Assembly (NCBI RefSeq): GCF_041886205.1
Contig: NZ_CP169029.1
Source of the DNA: Escherichia coli
GTDB lineage: Bacteria > Pseudomonadota > Gammaproteobacteria > Enterobacterales > Enterobacteriaceae
Strand: one strand, 5' to 3'
DNA length: 64,000 bases
In this document: piece by piece, positions 11,156 through 53,695 of the stretch
Layout: the number at the start of each line of letters is the position of its first letter
Numbering within the stretch: the stretch's first letter is position 1
The notes under the pieces: generated by a model
Told to the model about the DNA's origin: nothing
What the model saw: the letters and a program-made list of their open reading frames with translations, nothing else
Database searches by the model: none
Made by a program: the position numbers and the translations under genes

Positions 11156-13285
11156 TCAATCAGTTGTGGAGAATCTTGAGGAACGAGAAACATGATCACT
11201 CCCTGAATGATTGATCTCTCTGATGTTGCTAGGTGAGAGGCAACCTCTCAACCTTCTTTTATTTATTATAACTAGTCCATCATGAGGAGAGTGATTAATG
11301 TTCACAGAATCCCCACGACTAAAGGCCAGAACGTTTTTAGTTGCAAATACACCCTCAAATGCGCTCCATATTCCTGCTTTATCTATATATAATGCGTGGA
11401 ATTCATTGTAGAGCTGCTGATAGGTAGAGCAACCTTTATTAAGCCACGCCTCACCGCCGACACGCGTCGACCCATCATCATTTTTAATTTCAGTCGTTGA
11501 TTTTAATACTTGGCCATCCCAGTAAACTAAAGGCCTGCTGAACGGGAGAGCGGCCATATATGCCATTGCTAATTGTTCATCTTGTTGATGGTTAAATAGA
11601 AAGTCATTGAAAAGATTGCCATTGTTAGGAAAATCGTGGTTAATGTTAATCAATATCCGTCTTTTTGATGGGATGCTTGAGATTGTTGAACCCGGTTTTG
11701 ATGCAAGGGTTTGGAGATCGCCACCAAATGAAAAAGCTTTTATCGTCTTCATGAGCAATGAAAAATCAATGGCGCTTAAATCATCTCTTTCATAAAGCAG
11801 CGATGACATTTGTTGTTCATCCAACTGACTAGTTACCAGATATTCCATGTAATTCATAACGGCTTTTTCATGATATTTTGGGTTAAATAAGTTAGTATTG
11901 TGTAATCGCTCATTATAATTTTTAAGCGGTGGGGTTATTGATCTTTCTATTTGTTCATGTTTTGAGTGTTTTGCTGCATCGTAACGTAAACCTCGTACGC
12001 CATATTTTCGCATTTCACGAACGTATTGATTTTGCAGCATAATAACCTGGTCACTTTTGGGGGTTGTTTTAGGCATTCCATTTAAACGCTTTTCTTTTAA
12101 TGCATAGAGGTTTTCCCATTCATCCTTAGAAATATTATCTTTACTTGCTTCGAAGTCTTTTGCAGTGAGATGTATATCTTCTGGATGGATTTGTTTACGT
12201 TCTTTTGTTACTGGATCTATAGTAAATGGAATCAAAACCTGACCTTGCCAATAGCCAGGGATACCACTTTCTATATCTTTACTGATCTTCGCTCGTATAT
12301 CAGTAGAGGGATAATCCAGGTCATTTTTACCACTACCCCCGATTCCCATAAAGTTAAAGGTATAATCAGGAATGATATCGATACCAAATTTTTTAGCATC
12401 TTTAACCAATGCGATAAAATCCTGCAAATCTCCCATTGGATTATGGATGGTACAAAGATCTTCGGGTTGATAAGCGTGAAACCAGTAACCTTTTTCTTCT
12501 TCGGGAGTTTCTGGTCCGTCGGCGCGGAAAGTTGTCACTGGAGGGATTTGTATATACCCATAATGGCAACGTGCAAACTCAGACATATTTTCCCTGATTT
12601 GCTGGTAGGTGGCATTAAAAGCATGAAGAATCGCTTCGCCAGGTTTTTTAGGGGTGATGATTTCACATTGTGATTTCTGAACAGCAGTAAGAGATTTACG
12701 CTCAAGTGTTTGCCGTAGATGTTCTGGATTGATTAATATTTTAAATGTTTCTTGCTGTCCGGAAGGTGACGTCACGTTAATATTATATACATCGGCTGCC
12801 AGCTCATAGTCAGGGATGTTAATAGCATATGCAACATATTTATCTTTTGGGGAGGGTTTTTCAGATATAATGTGGGTGAAATATTCAGCAGGACCATACT
12901 GGTGAACCCCCTTGTTATCTTCTCTTTCATTCATTGTATCTCTTTGATAAATCCATGTTTTTCCTTCTCCTATCCTGTCTGGCGCTGTAATGCTACGCTG
13001 TGCAGCTTTATTCAGTTCACGGTAAGTTGTATCTGGAAAAAGGGAAATTTTATAATCGTTTTTTAACAGATCATTAATGATTTTTTCTGCGTGAAAAGTT
13101 GATATAATTTCTCTGTCTTTTAAATCCTGAGGATAAACTCCACAAGCATTAATAATATTTGTTACACAGTTTAGATATTCTAATGTATTTAATTTGGAAT
13201 TTAGATCCCCGTCAGTAATGTTCCATGATAACAATGTGGGGGTGTCGATAGGTAAATTTCTTGGTCCTGGTTTTATAGAAAACAT
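11156..13285 (-). CDS. ygaQ: Glycoside hydrolase family 13 (alpha-amylase-like) protein, YgaQ-like
   Basis: 709-aa ORF; GVRGLRYDAAKH resembles GH13 conserved region II; lies beside ileY as ygaQ does in K-12; AT-rich; the C-terminal end may be affected by the junction with the anomalous block. Confidence 0.55.
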   Translation of the reverse strand: MFSIKPGPRNLPIDTPTLLSWNITDGDLNSKLNTLEYLNCVTNIINACGVYPQDLKDREIISTFHAEKIINDLLKNDYKISLFPDTTYRELNKAAQRSITAPDRIGEGKTWIYQRDTMNEREDNKGVHQYGPAEYFTHIISEKPSPKDKYVAYAINIPDYELAADVYNINVTSPSGQQETFKILINPEHLRQTLERKSLTAVQKSQCEIITPKKPGEAILHAFNATYQQIRENMSEFARCHYGYIQIPPVTTFRADGPETPEEEKGYWFHAYQPEDLCTIHNPMGDLQDFIALVKDAKKFGIDIIPDYTFNFMGIGGSGKNDLDYPSTDIRAKISKDIESGIPGYWQGQVLIPFTIDPVTKERKQIHPEDIHLTAKDFEASKDNISKDEWENLYALKEKRLNGMPKTTPKSDQVIMLQNQYVREMRKYGVRGLRYDAAKHSKHEQIERSITPPLKNYNERLHNTNLFNPKYHEKAVMNYMEYLVTSQLDEQQMSSLLYERDDLSAIDFSLLMKTIKAFSFGGDLQTLASKPGSTISSIPSKRRILININHDFPNNGNLFNDFLFNHQQDEQLAMAYMAALPFSRPLVYWDGQVLKSTTEIKNDDGSTRVGGEAWLNKGCSTYQQLYNEFHALYIDKAGIWSAFEGVFATKNVLAFSRGDSVNINHSPHDGLVIINKRRLRGCLSPSNIREINHSGSDHVSRSSRFSTTD

Positions 13286-13844
13286 AATAACGTTCCTCTA
13301 ATGGTAGAGTAATATGATGTATACGGAAACATAAAAATGTTTAATTGTTATGAAAGTAATTGCAAACAGATGTCCTATTTTTATCCAATATTTATATGGA
13401 AAAGGATAATGCTTAAATCTGTTTTTTTAATTATCGATGTGGTCTGGAGAGGCAACTGTCAAAAATCGCTCATACGAAACTAATTATTAGCAGAATAAGT
13501 TCTATAAAAGAATATATTGCTATATGAAGTTTATTTTTATGGAGTGAAAAGTAACAGATATCATAATGATGCGAAAACTCTTCAGTTAATGTAATAAACT
13601 TATATTATTAGATACAAAATCATTACAAAGTATCATTGAATCAATGATAACTATAGATAGTGTTAATTATTAACATTTGCTTGTTGACTGCGAGTATCGA
13701 CTTTGCGAATGGAGGCGATGTCGGGTTTTATGTCGCATGTATTGACGACCCAAGGTGAATGGGAACGCATAAAAATCTGTTATTTACATCATAAGATCAT
13801 CATGTTTATTGCGTGGTTTATAAGTATTGTTATTGCATACTTAA

Positions 13845-13920
13845 GGCCCTTTAGCTCAGTGGTTAGAGCAGGCGACTCATAATCGCTTGGTCGCTGGTTC
13901 AAGTCCAGCAGGGGCCACCA
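13845..13920 (+). tRNA. ileY: tRNA-Ile2 (anticodon CAT, lysidine-modified), ileY-type
   Basis: 76-nt cloverleaf ggccctttagctcagtggttagagcaggcgactCATaatcgc...ggggccacca with 7-bp acceptor stem and CCA end. Confidence 0.93.
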
Positions 13921-13928
13921 AATAAAAC

Positions 13929-13970
13929 AAGGACTTAGACAGGAAGCTGGCTAAGTCCTTTTTGTTTTGT
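13929..13970 (+). terminator. Intrinsic terminator after ileY
   Basis: Hairpin ggacttag...ctaagtcc followed by tttttgtttt. Confidence 0.6.
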
Positions 13971-13976
13971 TTCAAT

Positions 13977-14001
13977 CTGGGTGACGTAATGGGTGACGTA
14001 A
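13977..14001 (+). repeat. Tandem GGGTGACGTAA motifs at the tRNA-proximal island end; possible integrase arm-type or AlpA binding sites
   Basis: tgggtgacgtaatgggtgacgtaa; the same motif recurs at 33759-33804 next to the integrase start. Confidence 0.45.
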
Positions 14002-14036
14002 CTCAACTATAGGTGCCGTAGTCAGGGAGATTTAGC

Positions 14037-14831
14037 ATGAGCTTTAAGGATAAAGTTGAAGAGAAAAAAATGCGCCGTATGGCCCGTCCCCCTGAGTTAA
14101 CGGTAAAGGACTGGATTAGCCTTTATGATCTTCTTCGTTCAGCCAAAGCTCAAGACTCAGAAGCCATGTACGAAGACTTCGCCTCTGTGCTGTTAACTAC
14201 CCTGTCGGTTGAGCATCATCCGGAACTATACCGCCTGGACGGAAACAAACTAAACGCTGTTGCCGATGACCATTTTGCCTGGGACCTACTATCCGCCCCA
14301 ATGAAAGGGAAAATGTCCCCTGAAGAATTGGCGAAGCGCCCGAAGACCCTTTCCCAACTTCTTTGTATCTACGATGAAGATATCAGTAACGACGAGTCAC
14401 TTCGTACACATGGCTTCTTGCGTGACGCTATTGCCCCTATCCTCGATTTCGAGCTTCTGGATAGCATCGAAGATGAGCCTGACTACAAAGAAAAATATTT
14501 CGAGTTGCTAGCAGCGCAAAAGCACTCGACTCCCCCGCCACTAAGAGGGGAAAGTTATGCTATCAAACGAGAAGAGTTGCTGATCACAGCCCTTGCGGTT
14601 ATCTCTCAAAATCAAAGAGACGCTAATAAAAAGGTCGTCCCAACAGTTACTGAACTTCTGAATCAGATAGAAAAACATGCCTCTGCGTTCTGGCCTCACA
14701 GTAAACAACTTCCGATGTCTCGTGAGAATGCTTCTAAAGAGCTAGGCTTCGCCTTACATCTTTTAGAACAACCAAATCAGAATATTGAATTTCTTCGGGA
14801 AGCCAAAAAAGCAAAAAGAAAAAGTGCATAA
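14037..14831 (+). CDS. Hypothetical protein (264 aa), island-encoded
   Basis: Clean ORF with acidic helical composition and a lysine-rich C-terminus; no motif recognised. Confidence 0.5.
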   Translation: MSFKDKVEEKKMRRMARPPELTVKDWISLYDLLRSAKAQDSEAMYEDFASVLLTTLSVEHHPELYRLDGNKLNAVADDHFAWDLLSAPMKGKMSPEELAKRPKTLSQLLCIYDEDISNDESLRTHGFLRDAIAPILDFELLDSIEDEPDYKEKYFELLAAQKHSTPPPLRGESYAIKREELLITALAVISQNQRDANKKVVPTVTELLNQIEKHASAFWPHSKQLPMSRENASKELGFALHLLEQPNQNIEFLREAKKAKRKSA

Positions 14832-14963
14832 AAAGAAATAGTTACAAAAGGTACCCAGTAATCTTCAGGAAGGTACACGAGAAATATACCGTTCAGTTTG
14901 ATTAACTCCGTTCAGTTTCAGCTTTCACCACCAGGAGTTATTCAATTGAAAAATAAACCAACC

Positions 14964-15167
14964 ATGTCTGATAAGGTTGTCGCCCTTCATCAGCCCCAAC
15001 GTCTGATTCGCATTGATACAATGCTTCAGCTCCTCGATTGCAGTCGCACCACCCTCTACCGCTGGGTTAAAGCTGGCATTTTCCCACAGCCGATAATGCA
15101 TGAGGGCCGAACCGTAGGATGGCCAGCCAATACGTATCAATGCTGGCTTGAGCAAAATAACAAGTAA
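14964..15167 (+). CDS. AlpA-family phage transcriptional regulator (Prophage CP4-57 regulatory protein-like HTH)
   Basis: LIRIDTMLQLLDCSRTTLYRWVKAGIFPQPI matches the AlpA/MerR-like HTH pattern; start trimmed from ORF 14898 to MSDKVVAL. Confidence 0.65.
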   Translation: MSDKVVALHQPQRLIRIDTMLQLLDCSRTTLYRWVKAGIFPQPIMHEGRTVGWPANTYQCWLEQNNK

Positions 15168-15272
15168 TTCTGTTTGTTAAAGGGCTGAAATATTCAGCCC
15201 TTTCTTCATCTGACAATGAAACAAACTGGAACAAAAACGATTATTTTCACCTATTCTGCGACATGCTAAAAC

Positions 15273-16589
15273 ATGAGTAACTCTCTGATTAATCAAGTAA
15301 CAAAGCCCTCACCTGGTCAGGAACTCACCTCGGTATTTAATACTATTACGCCCGATAAGCCTGGCAACCTTGTTGAATATCAGCCAAAGGGAACGTTTGT
15401 TTTCAAAGAAGTGATGTGGTCTGTGCTGCCAGAGAAACGCAACCAGGACACGAAGATCATGAAAAGAATCTTCGGGGCAGTTGACAAGGTATCAGCGATG
15501 TCTCGCTTTCTTGCGGTCAGATATGATTTTCGGCTCCCGACCTACAGTGCGGATAATCGCATAATGGATGATTTCCATAATTTACTTTTCCGCCAGTTAA
15601 GTAAGAACTACCCAAAATCGTTTATCAGCTATCTTTGGGTAAGAGAGCAGGGCTCAGGGGAAGCACAGCATTATCACTATTTGTTGATGCTGGATGGCAA
15701 CTATATCCGTTATCCAAATAAGCTGAATACGATTGTCCGACATTGCTGGGAACAGGTTGCTGGTGGTTCGGTATGGTTCCCGGAAAACGGTTATTACTTT
15801 GTGAGCGAAAATGATCTCAAGACCTATACCGAATTGATGCTGAGAGTTAGCTATCTGGGTAAGCGCCGTACTAAAGAGTCAATTGATAAAGGTATCAAAC
15901 TTTTTGGCTCAGGCATGCGCAAACCGAAACCTGTCGCGCCTTCACGCCAAAAGTCTGCAATAACACCCTGCAAGCCAATCAACCAAAAAGCGGAGACGAA
16001 AACCAACGATCAGGATATGACGTTGAAATCCACCTACTCAGGAATGTTGGACAAATATTTTCTGGGCAAAGCCCGATTACCCGCCGTTCTGCGTAAACGT
16101 TCATCCTATGAACTTTATGACGAAAATAAATGGTGGTGTAATTCACCACGTTGGTCCGGCCATCGTCATAACTACGTGTTAGAGGCTCTGATTACTGGGA
16201 TCAGCCTTTCTGATTACGCACGCAAGTACAAGTTGAATCCAGTACGGGTATATGCAAACTGTCGCCGTGTTGGGGGGCAAAGCCTTAAAATTATTCACTG
16301 GGCATGGCATCGCTATTGCTTCCAGAAAAGCAAATCCACACAGGATGACTACATTAACAATCACCGGCTGAATCATAAAACAGCTAAAAAGCAGTTACGG
16401 CGTAAACCAATGAGCTCTCACTGGAGCCAGCACTTTGATCGATATTATCAAAAGTACTGGCCGAAAGGCTGGACTGTGGCCGACTACTGCCGTGAACACA
16501 ATCTGGTCGCCAGCACTGCCAGACGTTATATAGTCGATTTTCCATTTATAGGCCTGATAGACCCGTTCTTGTTGAAACCATGGTTATAG
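15273..16589 (+). CDS. YfjJ/YagK-family protein (inovirus Gp2-like), probable HUH-type replication initiator
   Basis: 438-aa ORF with HUH-like motif QHYHYLLML; AlpA-adjacent position as in CP4-57 yfjJ. Confidence 0.5.
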   Translation: MSNSLINQVTKPSPGQELTSVFNTITPDKPGNLVEYQPKGTFVFKEVMWSVLPEKRNQDTKIMKRIFGAVDKVSAMSRFLAVRYDFRLPTYSADNRIMDDFHNLLFRQLSKNYPKSFISYLWVREQGSGEAQHYHYLLMLDGNYIRYPNKLNTIVRHCWEQVAGGSVWFPENGYYFVSENDLKTYTELMLRVSYLGKRRTKESIDKGIKLFGSGMRKPKPVAPSRQKSAITPCKPINQKAETKTNDQDMTLKSTYSGMLDKYFLGKARLPAVLRKRSSYELYDENKWWCNSPRWSGHRHNYVLEALITGISLSDYARKYKLNPVRVYANCRRVGGQSLKIIHWAWHRYCFQKSKSTQDDYINNHRLNHKTAKKQLRRKPMSSHWSQHFDRYYQKYWPKGWTVADYCREHNLVASTARRYIVDFPFIGLIDPFLLKPWL

Positions 16590-17176
16590 AGATGAAAACA
16601 CCATAACAGTGTCACCTGGTATACTTACTGAGCGCGGCGTAACTTAAATATAAACACTTAGCCGCCATCAGTAAGCAGAGCCTTATCAACACTACCAGGG
16701 AATTATTGTGCAGCATGATAGCTGAGGTACCTCTCAATTCTTGACGGACATTAACGCACAGACAACGCTGATTACCTCCTGTAAGCCAATTTATATCTGC
16801 TTGCTGCCACATATCCGCTGGGACTAATCCCCTTTAAACACCTTTTACTTCAAAAAAATGTTTTCCTTCTGATTTATCCCATACGCGAAATAATGAAGAT
16901 TTTATTTTAATTACTAATACTTTCAATGAGATAAGATGCATACATTCTTACACTCATATGATCACTTTTATTTTTCTTTTAATATCAACACGTTATGAAT
17001 TGATCAGCACAAAAGTCACTGCAGGGGGTTAGCTGATTGAACGTTTCAGTTCGTTTCTAATGGCCACATATAGATTCACATCAAGAACTAGTGATCACTG
17101 TAGGGTAACGGTATGCCCAGATCAGCCTGCAGGGTATTCGCTGCGGATGACATGAAAAACAAAGACAGGGGATTGC

Positions 17177-17824
17177 TTACGGGTCAACAAACACACTGAT
17201 GGGGAGGTTAAACCGGCGCGCAAGTGCTCGCTTGTGATCCAGTGTTAATGTGCAATCCCCTTTCAGGATGCGACTCACCAGAGATTTATTACCAATCTCT
17301 TCTTCAAAATCGCTCTGAGTCAGTTTGTGCTGATCCATCAGTACGCGCAGTAAGGCAACACCCGTTGGGACCGCTGCAATACGGCTATTAAATTCAGCAA
17401 ACTCCGGCGCTTCATCTTCATACTGACCGATTTTCGCAACCAGAATATCCACCAGCGGATGGTCCGGCTCGTGTTCAATCAGATACTCGACCAGAGCCAG
17501 TGCATCTTCACTGTGGAAGCGTACGACTGATGTATAGGTAACATTTTGTTCAGTAATATATTTCATGGCTGCCAGTAAGTAGGAAGCTTTGAAAGTCACG
17601 TCCTGATAGTCCTTAGCTAACAAACTCCCATTCTCTTCAAACCGTTCAACAAATGCTGCAACTTCTTTTGGATCGATACGGCTGGTTTTATCTTTTCCGT
17701 TTCGAACAAACAGCTTTTGTTCTTCAGTATATAGCGTAAAAGGTACCTTCCTTGCCCCAGTAGACAGTTCAACTGGTTGGGAAAAAGACTCCAACATTAA
17801 ATGATAGAAATCTTTATAAGTCAT
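17177..17824 (-). CDS. Protein with C-terminal XRE-type helix-turn-helix and uncharacterised N-terminal domain
   Basis: C-terminal LTQSDFEEEIGNKSLVSRILKGDCTLTLDHKRALARRFNLPISVF resembles HigA/XRE HTH; immediately downstream of the McrC-like gene. Confidence 0.55.
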   Translation of the reverse strand: MTYKDFYHLMLESFSQPVELSTGARKVPFTLYTEEQKLFVRNGKDKTSRIDPKEVAAFVERFEENGSLLAKDYQDVTFKASYLLAAMKYITEQNVTYTSVVRFHSEDALALVEYLIEHEPDHPLVDILVAKIGQYEDEAPEFAEFNSRIAAVPTGVALLRVLMDQHKLTQSDFEEEIGNKSLVSRILKGDCTLTLDHKRALARRFNLPISVFVDP

Positions 17825-17913
17825 GATTACTACTCCCTCATCATTTTAGCACTCAAGAAAATACATGATGTGGTTGATTATCCGGTTGATAATTATGAAT
17901 CGTCATCGTCTCA

Positions 17914-19215
17914 TTACGGGGAAAACAGGGGGAAGGACGATTGCCACTCACCTTCCACTAATGCCCCTGATTCAAGCTCGAAGGGCACACACCAGAGCGA
18001 TAAATGTTTATCAAAATGGAACACTGGCAACGGAGTATCAAAAAACTGATGACGTGGATATATCAGCATCATATTCCCCTTCCCTTGCAGATATTTTTGC
18101 CCATAAGCGAACATCTGATACAGATCAGCCTGGTTAATTTCATACTTTCTCAGGCTGTTATCAGCTCGGCTGTCTAACAGCTTCCATTTGGCATCCAGTA
18201 CCATTACCTGCTCACCTGTGATGAGAAAGTCAGGTTTAAGCATGAACCATTGTTGAGGAGCCCTTTCGCCAGCAGGTACATGATCTAACAAATAATGACG
18301 TTTTGCCTGCTCAATAAGCTGATAATCCCTCAGCAAAGATAAAGCCAAACTGCGCCCCACCCAGCATTCATATAATTTTTCCATCGGGAACAACAGCGAG
18401 ATCCCCTGATGCAACCCATGCTGAAAATCTGGATTCAGTTTTTCCAGAATAAGTTGGCACCATGGCTTGATGGCACGATAAGCATAGAGATATTTACCGT
18501 TGCTCCATTGCGCCAGAGGCTGCGTTGTACTGCCACAAATTGGCTCTATACCGTCCAGTTGGTGGCTCAACGTGTTCGCCTGTCGCCAGCTCTGCCCCTC
18601 TTTGGTCATTTTAAGCACCCAATTCAGGGCCGTACGTAACAGACGGTTTTCAACTCGCTGAGGTGAAAACTCCGCATAACGCACATGAAAGCGAGCATCT
18701 CTACCAGGAGGCTGTCTCATTTGTGCCGTGATGTTCAACTGACCACGGATAAAAGCGCTGTGCTCATCCTCAACAAGGTGGTAGTCGAACCGCAACCCTT
18801 TGTGTACCAGTTCGGTAAGATGCCGCAAGAACTCGCTGAAAATCCACTCATGCATCGGCTGGTTGCTCCGCTGCAATGCAGCCTGATTAACTTCTCGGGG
18901 TGTAATCCCCAATGAAGCGCTGAGCATTCGACGTAAAAGCTGACGCAGGGGGATTATCTCAGTTGGCGCTTCAAATGTGGTTTTGGGCAGAATTTCAATT
19001 GACTCGCCATTCGGGGATTGTAGATAACCGACATAGCTTCCCAAACGCAAAAACCGCTTCCCTTCTCGGCTGAGAATTTGAGAGGTACCACTCCACTTTT
19101 GTTGCAATTGCTCAAGCCAGGAAAAGGTTGCCTCAGAGACAATTCCCAAATCCATACTGGCTGTTTGAGAACTATCACAAGTCAGCAGAGCATATTCCCG
19201 GACCTGGATCATCAT
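17914..19215 (-). CDS. McrC-like PD-(D/E)xK nuclease subunit
   Basis: 433 aa; C-terminal PDF...VLDAKWK catalytic-type motif; start overlaps the stop of the upstream McrB-like gene. Confidence 0.7.
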   Translation of the reverse strand: MMIQVREYALLTCDSSQTASMDLGIVSEATFSWLEQLQQKWSGTSQILSREGKRFLRLGSYVGYLQSPNGESIEILPKTTFEAPTEIIPLRQLLRRMLSASLGITPREVNQAALQRSNQPMHEWIFSEFLRHLTELVHKGLRFDYHLVEDEHSAFIRGQLNITAQMRQPPGRDARFHVRYAEFSPQRVENRLLRTALNWVLKMTKEGQSWRQANTLSHQLDGIEPICGSTTQPLAQWSNGKYLYAYRAIKPWCQLILEKLNPDFQHGLHQGISLLFPMEKLYECWVGRSLALSLLRDYQLIEQAKRHYLLDHVPAGERAPQQWFMLKPDFLITGEQVMVLDAKWKLLDSRADNSLRKYEINQADLYQMFAYGQKYLQGKGNMMLIYPRHQFFDTPLPVFHFDKHLSLWCVPFELESGALVEGEWQSSFPLFSP

Positions 19216-21194
19216 GTGACAATACCCTGATAAGCTTCTACCGACGCGAAAGCACGTTCATTGATGCGAAAACGCCTGTCAGACAAGCTATCCGCAATAT
19301 CTTTCGGGAATAGTTCAGAGAATGACGGTAATTGTGCTGACTGTTGCAACAGGATAAAACGGTTTTCTTTCGCTTTTACCGAATCATTAAGCACCCAACC
19401 AATGCGCTCATAATCATCAAAGAAATACTCTCTCAGTAATGGAATGATTTTGTTCTGGAAGATGCTGGCCAGACAGGCTTCGCGGTCGGCATTATTTTCT
19501 AATTTTTTTAGTGGCATAAAGTAAGCATGGCCAATCATATGTTCACTATCCAGCAGCGCTTCGATCCGCTGATTAATACGCGTTAACAACGTTTCGACAT
19601 CAACACCGAACGCAGTGACCCCAGCTAACAGCTCCGGTCGTGCGGGCATTTCGGTAAAGCTAAAGCGTCGTCTTAGCGCCAAGTCCATTTGGATGAGTGA
19701 TTTATCCGCAGTATTCATCGTCCCAATGACATAAACATTTTGCGGTACTGAGAATGCTTGCTTTGAATAAGGGAGCATCAGCGACCGCTCATCATCGGCC
19801 CCTTGACGTTTGTCCGGCTCAAGAAGAGTAATAAGCTCACCAAAGATACGTGCTATATTACCGCGGTTGATTTCATCTATTATCAGTACATGTGGTAGAT
19901 CCTGACTATCGGCATTCTCAACAGGAGCCAGCAACTGAGTTAATTTTTCACGATCAATCGTCGTATCCTGCAACTCATATAGGGTCATCTGAGATAGTGA
20001 CTTGATGAAAATTTGCTCTTTAGGAAGGCTTGGGGTGTATGTTCTTAACCATTTAACTGAACGCATTTGATGGTAATACTCACGTTCATCATTGGGTAAA
20101 TAACTATACTCACCTGTAATCTCAGCTATTGCACGGAACTTATGATTTCCATCAGAGACGACGACTAAATCGCCATTCTTAATAATATTTTTAAAGGTAT
20201 TCACGGCAACAGCCATATAATTACTGGTGCCTTCCAATGACTGTTTTTCTGATGCAATCCGAGCTTTGACTGACTCATAGGTAGAGCAGTTACTAAAATC
20301 GATATCTTCTCCCCAACCTAGCAGGACATAATTGTTTGCCAGGCAGTCCTCATACACATCCTCTTCTCCGCCCATGGTATTACCCAGAGACATCTTCCAG
20401 ATCCGCCGACCTTTGAGTGAGATAGATTGTGTTGCACTCCCCTGAACTTTAACCCTGGCATTCAGGCACAGCTGTTTAAAAATACCATCCACAACTTCGT
20501 AGCGAAGCGCGCCCGATTTTTCATCAGTAGTTGCGCGAATCCCTTCGATAAAATCTTCATAGGAGAAGCTCTGATGGAAGGTGGTAAACATAATGCGCTG
20601 CTTTTCTACCAACGCCTTATAGCGTTCATTTACCAACTCCCGTAAGTCATTGCCATGATGTTCGAGCGTAGCCTGTTGGTACCACGTATTATCGGCAATT
20701 TTGACCGCCATTTCGGTGGTACTGTAGGTTTTACCCGTGCCGGGTGGTCCAAAGAGAATTTGGTTTAAGGGATACATTAACGATTGTTCCTTATTTTCGT
20801 TGTCTCTTTTTAGTCTGGGTTGGGTAGTTATAGATGGTTTACCACCCAGCAAAGCCACCAGCGTCTGCAACGCTTCAACGGATTCAACATCAGCCGCGAA
20901 ACCATATTGGGATGTACCGTTATCTTTCGGATAACGGCGGTAGCTGGTGCTTTTTACTTTTTCCCAAAGGCAGTGGATACCCGAAATGCGATCAATTTCC
21001 GCTTTTACGGCAAGGGTTTCAGGTGCAAGAACCAATGGACTCTTTTTAACCACGCCGTCCCGGCTGCGTTTGACATACAGATACTTTCCATTCCCGAGCG
21101 CATGTTCGGATGCATAGCTTGGCTCGAATTTTCCCGCCTCAAGCCGGTAACCCAATTCATTCAACGCCTGGTATATCTCGAAAGAATTCAGCAT
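19212..21194 (-). CDS. McrB-like AAA+ GTPase subunit with an unusually long insertion inside the AAA+ module
   Basis: Walker A ILFGPPGTGKTY, McrB-signature LIIDEINRGN and RRRF; about 285 aa between Walker A and Walker B; AAGGAG RBS before the ATG. Confidence 0.75.
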   Translation of the reverse strand: MLNSFEIYQALNELGYRLEAGKFEPSYASEHALGNGKYLYVKRSRDGVVKKSPLVLAPETLAVKAEIDRISGIHCLWEKVKSTSYRRYPKDNGTSQYGFAADVESVEALQTLVALLGGKPSITTQPRLKRDNENKEQSLMYPLNQILFGPPGTGKTYSTTEMAVKIADNTWYQQATLEHHGNDLRELVNERYKALVEKQRIMFTTFHQSFSYEDFIEGIRATTDEKSGALRYEVVDGIFKQLCLNARVKVQGSATQSISLKGRRIWKMSLGNTMGGEEDVYEDCLANNYVLLGWGEDIDFSNCSTYESVKARIASEKQSLEGTSNYMAVAVNTFKNIIKNGDLVVVSDGNHKFRAIAEITGEYSYLPNDEREYYHQMRSVKWLRTYTPSLPKEQIFIKSLSQMTLYELQDTTIDREKLTQLLAPVENADSQDLPHVLIIDEINRGNIARIFGELITLLEPDKRQGADDERSLMLPYSKQAFSVPQNVYVIGTMNTADKSLIQMDLALRRRFSFTEMPARPELLAGVTAFGVDVETLLTRINQRIEALLDSEHMIGHAYFMPLKKLENNADREACLASIFQNKIIPLLREYFFDDYERIGWVLNDSVKAKENRFILLQQSAQLPSFSELFPKDIADSLSDRRFRINERAFASVEAYQGIVT

Positions 21195-28358: not shown

Positions 28359-31300
28359 ATGCCAATTATTAATAAAAAGTATCAAGAGCTTCAGTTAACA
28401 GATGAGTACATTACCGATCCACTGCTCATGGCCCTAGCCTGGAAGAAAAGCCATCACTACATACGTACCACAAATTGGTATGCTGACAACTTTGAACTAG
28501 ACCTGTCGGCTTTGGACCTAATGCAGCACTGTAAAGATTGGGTCAAGAGAATGCAGGACAAAAAAGAATTTAAATTTTCAGAGCTACAACTTGTTCCTGT
28601 ACCAAAAGCCTGTAAATGGGAGTTTAAGACTGTCGAAAATAAGGTTCTATGGCAACCTTGTGATGAAAAAGAACTTACCCTACGCCCCCTTGCCCATATA
28701 CCCATAGCTGAACAAACCATCATGACATTAGTCATGATGTGCCTAGCCAATACAATAGAAACCAAGCAAGGAAACCCAGACACCAGCTATGACATCGTCC
28801 ACCAGAAAGGTATCGTCAATTACGGAAATAGACTTTATTGTCAGTATATTGACGATAAAGCAGAGCACAGCTTCGGTGCAACAGTGACATATAGTAAATA
28901 CTTCACTGATTATCGGAAATTTTTAAATAGGCCTTATCATTTTGCGTCAAAAGCGCAAGGTGAAATTTCGCCGGACGAAGCCGTTTACATCATAGAACTA
29001 GATCTTGCGAAGTTTTTCGATTTAGTAAACAGGAAGACTCTAATTCAAAAGATAAAAAACCATATCAGTGAGTCAATAAACAATAAAGAAAACCCACTCG
29101 CCAATCATTTATTTAAATGTTTTGCAAACTGGGACTGGACTGCATCTAGCATAAAAAATTATGACATATGCAAGTCAGACGAAGTAACAGAAATACCAAA
29201 AGGCATCCCTCAAGGATTGGTTGCAGCAGGGTTTCTATCAAATATTTACTTACTTGAATTAGATCAATTCTTGCATAATAAAATTAACACAGACATAACT
29301 GATGACATTAAATTTGTTGATTACTGTCGATATGTCGATGACATGCGATTTGTGGTTAAGGTTAAAAAATCAAAAAATAATAATACCGCATTCATAAATG
29401 ATGTAATAACCAATCTTCTTAAAAATGAGATAGATAATCTTGGACTGATAATTAATCCTAAAAAAACAAAAGTAGAAATTTTTAGAGGCAAATCCGCAGG
29501 CATCTCGCGTAGCTTGGAAAACATCCAGACCAGATTAAGCGGCCCAATATCAATGGATAGCGCCAACGAACAACTTGGGCATCTTGAGTCATTATTAAGT
29601 CTGACAAAAACCGATTTTGAACCACCGAAAAATGGTAAATCAAATAGATTAGCTGAGATTGAAAAAGACCGTTTCGATGTCAGGGAGGACACTCTTAAGC
29701 GCTTTTCTGCCAATAAAATCAGTAAGATACTAAAAGAGTTAAGACATTTCATCTCGCAGGATATAGATACTGATGGGGAGGTTATTGCCGGGGAATGGGA
29801 TTATCTGCAAGAACGTTTGGCACGGCGTTTTATTGTCTGTTGGAGCCATGACCCGTCACTGGCACTGCTACTCAAGAAAGGGCTGGAACTTTTCCCTGAT
29901 CCTAAGCTATTAGACCCTATACTTGAACAGCTTTGCTCACTCATTGAAAGCGATAATGAAAAACAAAGTGCAGTAGCTACTTATTGCCTTGCTGAAATAT
30001 TTCGACATTCAGCAATGACTATTCATAAAAAAGACACCTATGCATTCCCTGCACAAGCCAATGTGGATGGGTACTTTGAAAAAATACAACATTGCGCCGC
30101 GACATTCATTAATAAGCGCAGCGCCTCTGACAACGAAACTTGGAACCTGTTAATTAATCAGGCTAGTTTTCTGTTGCTTGTGCGTTTAGATAATACATTA
30201 GAAAAAAATGGCACTGATGCCAGGCATGATCTTATCTTAAAACTGGCATCAGGCTTTAGAACAATTACACTTCCCACTAAAATGGATAGCAAGACTATAG
30301 CCTCATGTATTTTGTTGGCTAGTCAATTAGTTAAAGATAACAAACCATTTATTCGCTCCTGCGCTTCTTTGTGCGAAAGAATTTATGACAAAGAACACGT
30401 CATAAAATTGAAGAAAATAGTTAGCATAATATCACATCAAAACTTATCATTGTTTAAATCCTTAGTTTATCATTCACGACCTTTACAACAGAAGTGGCTA
30501 AACTCAGACTCCGTGAAAATAATAATTAATGAATGCCATATAGATATACAACCTTTGGCGACTTCTTTAGGCATGATAAAAAGTAGTCACTCATTACTTA
30601 GAATCATATCAAGACCTGATAACCCATTTGCCAATGAGATAATGGCATTAAAACTGATGCAAGCCCTTTTATTGGACAGGATTGTTTGCCTGGATAATAA
30701 AAAAGATTATCAAATAAGTGTAGCAAACACCAAAGTGACGTTTCATAACTACTCCAACCCTCCAACATCGAATGTCTTCGATGCAGGAATGGATATGGAT
30801 GCAAAATTATTCAAATCATCGGGATGGGTCGATTCTATTTTCACGGATGATGCAGACACTCAAATATTGTATAGAGTTGCCATGTGCATCCGTTCAGTAC
30901 TACTCGGCAAACAAGACTGGACAGATTTTGGTCAAGCAATTTCCCCCAAACAGGGTTATCGGGGTATTAAAACTAGTAGAGACAAACGTCAATTGGGGAT
31001 GATGACAACACCTGAGTCCATTGCCGGTGAGAACTCTCAGGTTTCTGGTTGGCTTACCACACTCTTATCCAAGTTGCTTGCCTGGCCGGGAATTTCAGTG
31101 GGTGATAATGGATATCAATGGCCAGCAATTTTTACAGTAGATGCTGTCAGAAAACTAGTTGATGCTCGGCTGAGTAAACTTAAGCAGGATTACTGCAAAC
31201 TATCAGGAACTCCGGGACTTACAGAAAAAATACAGTTCAACTGGTCTGACTCGAAAAAAGCCCTAACAGTTGCTATGGTCCAGTCAAAACTGCCTGCAAC

Positions 31301-53332: not shown

Positions 53333-53695
53333 TGGTGGAGCTGGCGGGAGTTGAACCCGCGTCCGAAATTCCTACGTCCTCGGTACTACATGCTTAGTCA
53401 GTCTTTACATTCGCTTGCCAGCTGCGGACGGACACGCCACTAACAAACTAGCCTGATTAAGTTTTAACGCTTCAACCCCAGGCAGGGCTTCCACGCGATC
53501 TCTTTTGGGTTTGACCTCTCTTGATCCCCGTCCTAAGAGCGGAGGCTAGGGAGAGAGGGCTCTAAGCAGGTTATTAAGCTGCTAAAGCGTAGTTTTCGTC
53601 GTTTGCGACTATTTTTTGCGGCTTTTTACGAGGCCAACCGCCCCTCGGCATGCACCTTGGGTTTCGCAAATCCCGTCGAATCCAGAATCAGCCCC
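53333..53695 (-). ncRNA. ssrA: tmRNA (SsrA)
   Basis: Reverse complement reads GGGGCTGATTCTGGATTCGACGGGATTTGCGAAACCC ... GGTTCAACTCCCGCCAGCTCCACCA, matching E. coli ssrA over its length. Confidence 0.95.

What the first reader, a model, noticed from the sequence alone, without database searches (positions are those of the whole stretch)
17177..17824. HTH-containing protein immediately downstream of the McrC-like gene
A 215-aa protein with an uncharacterised N-terminal domain and a C-terminal XRE/HigA-like helix-turn-helix is encoded about 90 bp downstream of the McrC-like gene on the same strand. It could be a regulator of the restriction operon, an antitoxin-like component, or an additional defence-associated sensor.
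Basis: inference. Interest (0 to 1): 0.4.

Follow-up and report, generated by a model that had tools for sequence, protein, structure and literature searches.

The report
Fusion of McrBC-partner and HigA genes
The 215-codon gene after the McrC-like gene is an in-frame fusion left by a deletion: the front half of a small gene that normally follows this kind of McrBC restriction system joined to the rear four-fifths of a HigA antitoxin gene. Only the antitoxin-derived half still looks selected, so it is an orphan antitoxin remnant, not a dedicated regulator of the restriction genes.

Summary
The ORF is real: 17177-17824, minus strand, 215 aa, ATG with a good Shine-Dalgarno. It is a chimera. Residues 1-~105 are about 85% identical to the N-terminal domain of an unannotated ~205-aa family ("X"). 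X lies directly after a DUF8426-type McrB/McrC pair in every locus examined. Residues ~106-215 are about 83% identical to residues 30-139 of plasmid-type HigA antitoxins (about 50-57% to E. coli K-12 HigA). The junction is a GAAGA(T) microhomology at 17504-17509. X's Cys/His C-domain, higB and the first ~29 higA codons are absent from the window.

The same junction occurs in at least five intact alleles in E. coli, Citrobacter and Salmonella. Some of those islands have lost McrBC and the type I R-M genes, keeping only ~210 nt of mcrC. After the fusion, the higA-derived half evolved under purifying selection (omega ~0.16, P=1.6e-4). The X-derived half is relaxed (omega ~0.5).

There is no higB and no HigA-operator-like palindrome in the window. 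The "~90 bp gap" comes from a +1 frameshift in mcrC (G5 run 17928-17932); relatives have 21-28 nt.

Verdict: a deletion-made orphan-antitoxin fusion of modest interest. The more interesting by-product is X itself, an undescribed conserved third gene of this McrBC subtype.

The parts
17177..17824 (-). Chimeric ORF, 215 aa (X N-terminal domain fused in frame to HigA residues ~30-139). The exact protein is P0271, seen on 88 contigs.
17510..17824 (-). X-derived part (codons 1-105): the complete N-terminal domain of the McrBC-linked ~205-aa family, plus the first strand (VVRFHS) of its C-domain.
   Evidence: 84-87% identity to intact X. DNA about 90% identical to L006 X up to ...CACAGTGAAGA. Modelled pLDDT 82-94 for aa 6-93.
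17504..17509 (-). Fusion junction: GAAGAT (E106-D107), a 5-6 nt microhomology shared by X-like and higA-like relatives.
   Evidence: tblastn ranges of X (17824-17504) and HigA (17509-17183) overlap here.
17177..17509 (-). higA-derived part (codons 106-215): HigA lacking its first ~29 residues, with the C-terminal XRE-type HTH retained. PGAP annotates exactly this stretch as a pseudogene.
   Evidence: Post-fusion omega ~0.16.
17833..17839 (-). Shine-Dalgarno GAGGGAG, inherited from gene X; 8 nt before the ATG.
   Evidence: conserved in intact-X loci
17853..17913 (-). Former 3' tail of mcrC, now out of frame. The ancestral stop is TGA at 17853-17855.
17928..17932 (-). Five-base run (C5 on the coding strand, C4 in relatives). 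The extra base frameshifts mcrC, giving 433 aa instead of 453.
   Evidence: The 434-aa form is also seen in L034/L035.
17914..19215 (-). McrC-family gene (Pfam McrBC, E=7e-88), frameshifted at its extreme 3' end.
19212..21194 (-). McrB-like AAA+ protein, 660 aa, with an inserted domain (precomputed Pfam DUF8426 + McrB_lid in identical-length relatives; PADLOC PDC-S02 similarity at aa 265-408).
16590..17176 (.). 587-bp non-coding spacer between the chimera and yagK/yfjJ-like gene. It is part of the island backbone that always accompanies the chimera (90-97% identical between islands) and served as the neutral yardstick.
14037..16589 (+). Island backbone genes always found beside the chimera: 264-aa hypothetical protein, AlpA-like HTH, YagK/YfjJ-domain protein. 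They are adjacent to tRNA-Ile(CAT) at 13845-13920.

Best explanation
The ORF is an in-frame fusion made by a deletion or illegitimate recombination at a GAAGA(T) microhomology. The left parent is gene X, a ~205-aa, two-domain gene that is the conserved third gene of a DUF8426-type McrB/McrC module. The right parent is higA of a plasmid-type higBA toxin-antitoxin module. X's Cys/His C-domain, higB, the first ~29 codons of higA and anything between them are missing from the window.

The fusion keeps X's ribosome-binding site and start codon, so it is probably translated at the tail of the mcrBC transcript (inferred). The predicted product has a folded X N-domain, a disordered junction, and a helical HigA body with its C-terminal HTH.

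Since the fusion, selection has acted on the higA-derived half only. I therefore think the protein works as an orphan antitoxin-type HTH protein acting in trans. It could bind the conserved operator of related, mostly plasmid-borne higBA loci, or bind their HigB toxin (anti-addiction). The X-derived domain would be largely a passenger. It is not a dedicated regulator of the McrBC/type I R-M genes.

Shown: chimeric origin, junction, distribution, loss of McrBC in some carriers, and the selection asymmetry. Inferred: expression, DNA or toxin binding, and the trans target.
For: Chimeric origin:
- aa 1-~105 match only the N-half of ~205-aa proteins (84-87% identity); aa 107-215 match only residues ~30-139 of 138-139-aa HigAs (up to 83%).
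- DNA similarity to intact X stops, and similarity to higA starts, within GAAGAT at 17504-17509.
- PDB HigA matches at E=6e-29 by sequence and ~1e-9 by Foldseek.
- PGAP flags the higA part as lacking its N-terminus.

X is McrBC-linked:
- It lies 0-60 nt after McrC in HsdMSR, WYL, mdoG, mug-rpoD and other settings, and in 7 of 7 species-representative genomes.

The fusion is a single, not very recent event:
- The same junction occurs in five intact alleles (up to 18 aa differences) in E. coli, Citrobacter and Salmonella.
- It is always next to the YagK-AlpA-264aa backbone.
- In L029-L033 it sits beside invasin-like genes, with only a ~210-nt mcrC remnant upstream.

Selection after the fusion:
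- higA half: 12 synonymous, 6 nonsynonymous events; omega ~0.16; neutrality rejected at P=1.6e-4.
- X half: 9 synonymous, 17 nonsynonymous events; omega ~0.5; P(neutral)=0.08; relaxed relative to intact X (omega 0.04-0.11) at P<=1.4e-4. Changes hit X-invariant residues (K4R, H104Y).
- Flank divergence of ~9-10% shows there was enough time to decay.

No cis partner:
- No higB, second higA or X C-domain in the 64 kb.
- The palindrome TTATGTTTCCA-N3-TGGAAACACAA, conserved upstream of higB in L014 and an E. coli plasmid, has no match (<=3 mismatches) in the window.
- Closest E. coli higA relatives are on plasmids in 70 of 74 places, paired with HigB.
Against: - No pre-deletion locus (X...higB-higA with this flank) was found, so the deletion is inferred from non-parental relatives. 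A two-step history cannot be excluded.
- The selection test rests on only five alleles and 44 events. Branch-wise tests are weak. Recombination among islands is evident: mcrB/mcrC dS is 0.12-0.14 against ~0.02 for the chimera between the window and L008.
- Disrupted copies exist (P0274, P0275, P0284), and PGAP treats the gene as a pseudogene.
- The missing HigA N-terminus may be needed for toxin binding (not tested).
- The chimera's HTH differs from plasmid HigA at a few positions, so operator recognition is unproven.
- Natural 101-aa N-domain-only forms of X follow McrBC in some species. The retained N-domain could therefore still matter where McrBC is present.
Confidence: 0.6

Rival explanations
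1. Dead remnant: the ORF is a non-functional pseudogene fusion that happens to be in frame and has not yet decayed, as PGAP's annotation implies.
For: - PGAP calls 17177-17509 a pseudogene missing its N-terminus.
- Both parents are truncated.
- There is no higB and no operator in the window.
- Truncated or frameshifted versions exist in some genomes (P0274, P0275, P0284).
- The X-derived half is statistically indistinguishable from neutral (P=0.08).
- An in-frame outcome has a 1-in-3 prior.
Against: - Five intact alleles span ~9-10% flank divergence without a stop or indel.
- The higA-derived half has 12 synonymous against 6 nonsynonymous events, omega ~0.16, rejecting neutrality at P=1.6e-4. 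The pattern persists on branches that lack McrBC (5 against 3, P=0.024).
- The ORF as a whole has diverged less (about 5%) than the adjacent spacer (about 10%).
Confidence: 0.25
2. One reading: a dedicated regulator, antitoxin-like brake or sensor of the McrBC/type I R-M operon. The N-domain would contact McrBC and the HTH would control the operon.
For: - The N-domain comes from a family strictly linked to this McrBC subtype, and it is retained whole.
- N-domain-only X forms occur naturally after McrBC.
- The gene keeps X's position and RBS just after mcrC.
- N-domain relatives are sometimes fused to another DNA-binding domain, RHH.
Against: - Intact alleles persist where McrBC and R-M have been deleted.
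- The conserved partner of McrBC is intact X or the short X form, not this fusion.
- The X-derived half is under relaxed constraint.
- The gene lies at the 3' end of the operon, unlike controller proteins.
- The HTH is about 50% identical to HigA, but matches C.BclI/C.AhdI only as a generic HTH (E 0.4-0.7, about 19% identity).
- No HigA-type operator exists in the window.
Confidence: 0.1
3. Cryptic toxin-antitoxin pair: the chimera is still an antitoxin for a non-HigB toxin encoded nearby, for example McrBC itself or an unrecognised small ORF.
For: The higA-derived half is under purifying selection. TA-like control of defence nucleases is a known theme (general knowledge, not tested here).
Against: - No HigB-like or other RelE/ParE-like hit in the window.
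- The chimera survives loss of McrBC.
- The only constant neighbours are YagK/AlpA/264-aa backbone genes on the opposite strand, 587 bp away.
Confidence: 0.05

Closest known systems
HigA antitoxin of the E. coli K-12 / Shigella type (YgjM; PDB 5IFG, 5YCL, 6JQ4, 6KML), HTH at the C-terminus
   Same: aa 107-214 align to HigA residues 29-138 (E=6e-29, about 50-57% identity; up to 83% to plasmid-type 139-aa HigAs). The predicted fold is the same (Foldseek E~1e-9). The C-terminal XRE HTH is retained (HTH position per PMC6987408).
   Different: It lacks the first ~29 HigA residues, which are replaced by ~105 unrelated residues. There is no upstream higB and no operator palindrome in the window. Toxin neutralisation and autoregulation are untested.
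Unannotated ~205-aa 'X' family, the third gene of DUF8426-type McrB/McrC modules (e.g. P0011, 'hypothetical protein [Enterobacteriaceae]')
   Same: aa 1-~105 are 84-87% identical to X's N-domain. It has the same start, the same RBS and the same position right after mcrC.
   Different: X's C-domain is missing. That domain has a W..NP.GFVLN...LH..C...FTG..Y.K.C...C..C motif and is fused to HNH, TIR or NOV_C effectors in relatives. Unlike X, the chimera also occurs without McrBC.
Orphan antitoxins / anti-addiction modules of E. coli chromosomes (PMC10790755, PMC7354431)
   Same: An antitoxin-derived gene without its toxin, on a chromosomal island, whose closest intact relatives are plasmid TA modules. 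The proposed roles in those papers (anti-addiction, trans regulation) fit the selection pattern.
   Different: Here the antitoxin is N-terminally truncated and fused to a foreign domain. No functional data exist.
R-M controller (C) proteins such as C.AhdI and C.BclI
   Same: XRE-type HTH encoded beside restriction genes.
   Different: Similarity is only generic HTH (E 0.4-0.7, about 19% identity). C proteins are ~70-100 aa and sit upstream of R genes with C-box operators. This gene is 215 aa, at the 3' end, and HigA-derived.

Membership tests
HigA antitoxin (K-12 type, type II TA) | Sequence and fold homology to HigA, including the C-terminal XRE-type HTH | tested here: met
   phmmer against PDB E=6e-29 over aa 107-214; Foldseek 6jq4/6kml E~1e-9; up to 83% identity to 139-aa HigAs
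HigA antitoxin (K-12 type, type II TA) | Complete antitoxin including the N-terminal ~29 residues | tested here: not met
   Alignment begins at HigA residue 29-30. PGAP: 'missing N-terminus'.
HigA antitoxin (K-12 type, type II TA) | Adjacent upstream higB toxin gene (higB-higA operon) | tested here: not met
   No HigB-like sequence anywhere in the window by tblastn at E<=10. Intact relatives have HigB immediately upstream.
HigA antitoxin (K-12 type, type II TA) | Autoregulatory operator palindrome in its own promoter | tested here: not met
   The palindrome TTATGTTTCCA-N3-TGGAAACACAA is conserved upstream of higB in L014 and L046. It has 0 matches with <=3 mismatches in the window. That this palindrome is the operator is inferred, not shown.
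HigA antitoxin (K-12 type, type II TA) | Neutralises HigB and binds DNA as a dimer | not testable with these tools
   Needs biochemistry or genetics
X family (third gene of DUF8426-type McrBC modules) | N-terminal domain homology | tested here: met
   84-87% identity over aa 1-~105; same predicted topology
X family (third gene of DUF8426-type McrBC modules) | C-terminal Cys/His domain (full-length form), or the conserved short tail ..NPDNK/..KPENK (101-aa form) | tested here: not met
   Replaced by HigA sequence after VVRFHSE. No C-domain remnant in the window. Short-form tails are seen in L044, L045 and P0122.
X family (third gene of DUF8426-type McrBC modules) | Located immediately downstream of mcrC | tested here: met
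   Met in this window (28 nt from the ancestral mcrC stop). Chimera alleles P0273 and P0279 have only a mcrC remnant upstream.
R-M controller (C) protein | Small (~70-100 aa) HTH protein upstream of, or overlapping, the restriction gene, with a C-box operator | tested here: not met
   215 aa, at the 3' end of the gene row. Only generic HTH similarity to C.BclI/C.AhdI. A C-box was not searched for specifically.
PD-Lambda-2 component B (PADLOC) | Full-length match to the 402-position model and presence of partner genes | tested here: not met
   Only aa 107-213 match model positions 15-118 of 402 (E=9e-7), which is the shared HigA-like HTH region. No partner genes were seen.

The most novel reading that the evidence does not exclude
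The fusion is a neo-functionalised gene. The X N-domain is the part of X that always accompanies McrBC, even in natural 101-aa short forms. Tethered to a dimeric HigA DNA-binding body, it could give a McrBC-interacting or invader-sensing module new DNA targeting or regulation. More broadly, X would be a genuine, undescribed third subunit of a McrBC subtype. Its C-domain is a new reader domain shared with HNH and TIR effectors.
Probability: 0.1. Interest if true: 0.6.

Novelty: new variant of a known kind. Interest (0 to 1): 0.33.

Why it matters
It is a fusion in which only one parent's half is still under selection. It gives a small, clean example of how deletions at the cargo/backbone boundary of a defence island create orphan antitoxin derivatives, and of such a derivative outliving the defence genes next to it. 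If the higA-derived half acts in trans on plasmid higBA modules, it could affect plasmid addiction in Enterobacteriaceae. The more useful lead is a by-product: a conserved, unannotated third gene (X) of a DUF8426-type McrBC module. Its C-domain recurs fused to HNH and TIR effectors, making it a candidate new specificity or sensor component of type IV restriction.

Tried and rejected
- Pfam, NCBIfam, PHROGs and PADLOC on the N-terminal half and on intact X: no significant family.
- Profile of N-domain relatives against PDB sequences: no hit.
- Search for the pre-deletion locus with the 3' flank probe AATCCCCTGTCTTTGTTTTTCA: 0 hits in species-representative genomes; 2 metagenome hits, both the same chimera.
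- Promoter/terminator scan around the ORF: no more sites than in shuffles.
- Rfam on 13000-18500: only the tRNA.
- HigB, a second higA and the X C-domain were searched for in the window and not found.
- Literature: nothing on X, DUF8426 or a third McrBC gene of this type.
- Considered and rejected a C-protein identity and PD-Lambda-2 membership.
- The idea that the breakpoint falls exactly at X's domain boundary was wrong: standalone C-domain proteins begin with the VxFxS strand. The chimera therefore retains one orphan strand, which is predicted to be disordered.

Full report
**Observation.** The window matches the E. coli GDSC2227PM chromosome at 100% over the 1.4-kb stretch compared. That stretch occurs in only 1 of 5,426 complete E. 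coli genomes. An ORF of 215 aa lies at 17177-17824 on the minus strand. It starts with ATG, preceded by GAGGGAG 8 nt upstream. It follows, on the same strand, hsdM-hsdS-hsdR (28175-21224), a 660-aa McrB-like AAA+ gene (21194-19212) and a McrC-family gene (19215-17914). All of this lies on an island inserted next to tRNA-Ile(CAT) at 13845-13920. The C-terminal half is HigA-like: phmmer against PDB finds E. coli/Shigella HigA at E=6e-29 over aa 107-214, aligned to HigA residues 29-138. The N-terminal ~105 aa hit nothing in Pfam, NCBIfam, PHROGs or PDB. NCBI's pipeline annotates only 17177-17509, as a pseudogene missing its N-terminus.

**The ORF is a chimera of two genes.**
- A search of 5.8 billion proteins returned two kinds of partial relatives besides identical copies. 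About 205-aa 'hypothetical proteins' match only the first half (84-87% identity). HigAs of 138-139 aa match only the second half (up to 83%).
- The 205-aa proteins ('X') continue after ...VVRFHSE into a Cys/His-rich domain that is absent here. The HigAs have ~29 N-terminal residues that are absent here.
- At DNA level, the window follows an intact X gene (L006) at about 90% identity up to ...CACAGTGAAGA and then diverges abruptly. It follows higA (L014) from ...TGAAGAYGC... to a few bases past the stop codon.
- The X and HigA tblastn ranges overlap by 6 nt, GAAGAT at 17504-17509. This is a 5-6-nt microhomology, typical of illegitimate recombination.
- No higB, no second higA and no X C-domain remnant exists anywhere in the 64 kb.

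**The '~90 bp gap'.** In relatives, mcrC ends 21-28 nt (in one lineage 0 nt) before the next start codon. The window has one extra base in a short run (17928-17932). Deleting it restores a 453-aa McrC whose tail is identical to the Citrobacter copy and which ends at TGA 17853-17855. The same shortened form occurs in some other carriers. The affected 20-aa tail is poorly conserved between lineages, so the functional consequence is uncertain.

**What X is.**
- Intact X lies immediately after a McrB (precomputed Pfam DUF8426 + McrB_lid) / McrC pair in every setting examined: with hsdMSR; with a WYL regulator (where the intervening '163-aa gene' is an HsdR C-terminal remnant); between mdoG and an acetyltransferase gene; next to mug-rpoD; and in 7 of 7 species-representative genomes found by a pattern scan.
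- X has no Pfam, PADLOC or PHROG family and no convincing structural neighbour.
- A profile search of 1.84 billion representatives shows that its two halves are independent modules, each occurring alone as ~100-aa proteins.
- The C-domain has the motif W..NP.GFVLN...LH..C...FTG..Y.K.C...C..C. In 38 longer relatives scanned, HNH-type Pfam families matched 15 (HNH), 7 (HNH_2) and 4 (HNH_5) members, TIR families up to 3, and NOV_C 1. That profile fits a target-reading or sensor domain of defence nucleases (inference).
- The N-domain is occasionally fused to ribbon-helix-helix domains. A natural 101-aa N-domain-only form of X, with a conserved tail, follows McrBC in Kluyvera and another Enterobacterales genome.
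- I found no paper describing X.

**History of the fusion.**
- The exact window protein (P0271) is on 88 contigs. Its 90% cluster holds four further intact 215-aa alleles in Citrobacter, Salmonella and metagenomes, differing by up to 18 residues, plus truncated or frameshifted versions (P0274, P0275, P0284). All share the junction, so there was one event followed by spread.
- Every copy sits beside the same backbone: a 587-bp spacer, a YagK/YfjJ gene, AlpA and a 264-aa gene.
- The upstream cargo varies. The two most divergent alleles (L029-L033) have intimin/invasin-like genes instead of hsd-mcrBC, with only ~210 nt of the mcrC 3' end (carrying a 2-nt deletion) left upstream of the chimera. 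The fusion thus outlived the restriction genes.
- No pre-deletion locus was recovered.

**Selection after the fusion.**
- Among the five intact alleles, the higA-derived half shows 12 synonymous and 6 nonsynonymous events (omega ~0.16). Neutrality is rejected at P=1.6e-4.
- The X-derived half shows 9 synonymous and 17 nonsynonymous events (omega ~0.5). It is not distinguishable from neutrality (P=0.08) but is clearly relaxed relative to intact X (omega 0.04-0.11; P<=1.4e-4). Its changes include substitutions at residues invariant in intact X (K4R, H104Y).
- The adjacent spacer has diverged 9-10% between the most distant islands, so an unconstrained ORF had time to decay.
- On the McrBC-less terminal branches the asymmetry persists, with little power: N half 4:8, C half 5:3 (P=0.024).
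- Caveats: few alleles, and evident mosaicism. mcrB/mcrC dS is 0.12-0.14 between the window and L008, against ~0.02 in the chimera.

**Structure.** A model built with homologs of both halves gives a confident X N-domain (aa 6-93, pLDDT 82-94, the same topology as in intact X). The junction is disordered (aa 95-106, pLDDT below 50), and the HigA body is all-helical (pLDDT 61-80). Foldseek matches it to K-12 HigA (6jq4, 6kml; E~1e-9). R-M controller proteins appear only as generic HTH matches (E 0.4-0.7). K-12-type HigA carries its HTH at the C-terminus (PMC6987408), so the DNA-binding end is retained.

**Likely mode of action.**
- Intact relatives of the higA half are paired with HigB. In E. 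coli they are overwhelmingly on plasmids: 70 of 74 places, 81.5% nucleotide identity.
- Their promoters carry a conserved palindrome, TTATGTTTCCA-N3-TGGAAACACAA, 13 nt upstream of higB. The window has no match with up to 3 mismatches.
- The simplest reading of a selected, toxin-less, operator-less HigA body on a chromosomal island is an orphan antitoxin acting in trans. It would repress related higBA operons or sequester their toxin (anti-addiction). These roles are discussed for E. coli orphan antitoxins in PMC10790755 and PMC7354431.
- This step is inference. The missing ~29 N-terminal residues may matter for toxin binding, which I could not test.
- A role as regulator of the restriction operon is unlikely. 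The gene is at the 3' end, survives loss of the operon, and the McrBC-linked half is the relaxed one.

**Verdict.**
- The chimeric origin is shown; I put it above 0.9.
- The higA-derived half being functional: about 0.6.
- The specific trans-acting mechanism: about 0.3.
- A dead remnant remains a serious rival (0.25).
- The finding is a new variant of a known kind, an orphan antitoxin derivative, and of modest interest. The X family as a conserved third gene of a McrBC subtype deserves its own follow-up.

Noticed in passing
window 17928-17932 (and 17853-17913): mcrC carries a +1 frameshift in a five-base run, giving a 433-aa instead of a 453-aa product. The same short form (434 aa) occurs in some other carriers, while sister contigs have the long form. 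The change is therefore recurrent or polymorphic. The affected tail is poorly conserved, so the effect on McrC is unclear.
   Followed up: yes
L002-L007, L015-L025, L039-L045 (intact relatives of window 17510-17824): An unannotated ~205-aa two-domain protein (X) is the conserved third gene after a DUF8426-type McrB/McrC pair in all loci examined. It has no Pfam, PADLOC or PHROG family, and I found no paper on it. A natural 101-aa N-domain-only form also exists (L044, L045, P0122).
   Followed up: partly
proteins P0123-P0270; alignment A7: X's C-terminal domain (W..NP.GFVLN...LH..C...FTG..Y.K.C...C..C) is a widespread mobile module. It occurs standalone (~100 aa) and in triple tandem (P0137). 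Among 38 longer relatives, HNH-type Pfam families matched 15, 7 and 4 members, TIR up to 3, and NOV_C 1. It is possibly an undescribed Zn-binding reader or sensor domain of defence effectors.
   Followed up: partly
window 19212-21194: The McrB-like protein (660 aa) has a ~140-aa insertion inside the AAA+ domain (aa ~265-408). The insertion matches PADLOC candidate-system PDC-S02 models and corresponds to Pfam DUF8426 in relatives. It also has an uncharacterised N-terminal ~140 aa.
   Followed up: no
window 13845-13920; L008, L031, L034: The same island backbone (264-aa gene, AlpA, YagK/YfjJ) sits at a tRNA-Ile(CAT) gene near the gab/ygaQ region in this E. coli, but next to mug-rpoD in Citrobacter and Salmonella. 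This suggests integration at paralogous tRNA-Ile(CAT) genes. ARAGORN calls the tRNA Met(CAT); PGAP calls it Ile.
   Followed up: partly
window vs L008 (mcrB, mcrC, chimera): Mosaic divergence: mcrB and mcrC differ at dS 0.12-0.14 between the E. coli and C. freundii islands, while the adjacent chimera differs at dS ~0.02. This indicates recombination within the island.
   Followed up: partly
L014 1093-1117; L046 ~2570-2594: A conserved palindrome, TTATGTTTCCA-N3-TGGAAACACAA, lies just upstream of higB in two unrelated higBA loci. It is a candidate operator of this HigA subfamily and is absent from the window.
   Followed up: yes
L002/L003/L005 6121-6612: The '163-aa gene' between the WYL regulator and mcrB in one context is a C-terminal remnant of hsdR (92-94% identical to the HsdR end). 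The WYL-McrBC-X arrangement therefore derives from the hsdR-linked one.
   Followed up: yes
window ~11156-13285 and ~28400-29200: Two IS1A copies flank the region: one interrupts the amylase-like ygaQ-type gene left of the tRNA, and one lies just beyond hsdM (per RefSeq annotation of the matching record). Further right are two ParB-like genes, a recombinase and integrases, then a P2-like prophage start. A tmRNA gene is at 53333-53695.
   Followed up: no
L026 6523-7324: A standalone X N-domain homolog (P0127, 107 aa) sits 23 nt after a 151-aa gene of unknown function, in a different island rich in defence or TA-like genes (zeta toxin, M78 peptidase, Endonuclease_NS, P4 cII-like). A standalone C-domain protein (P0123) overlaps a 124-aa unknown gene (L027).
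   Followed up: no
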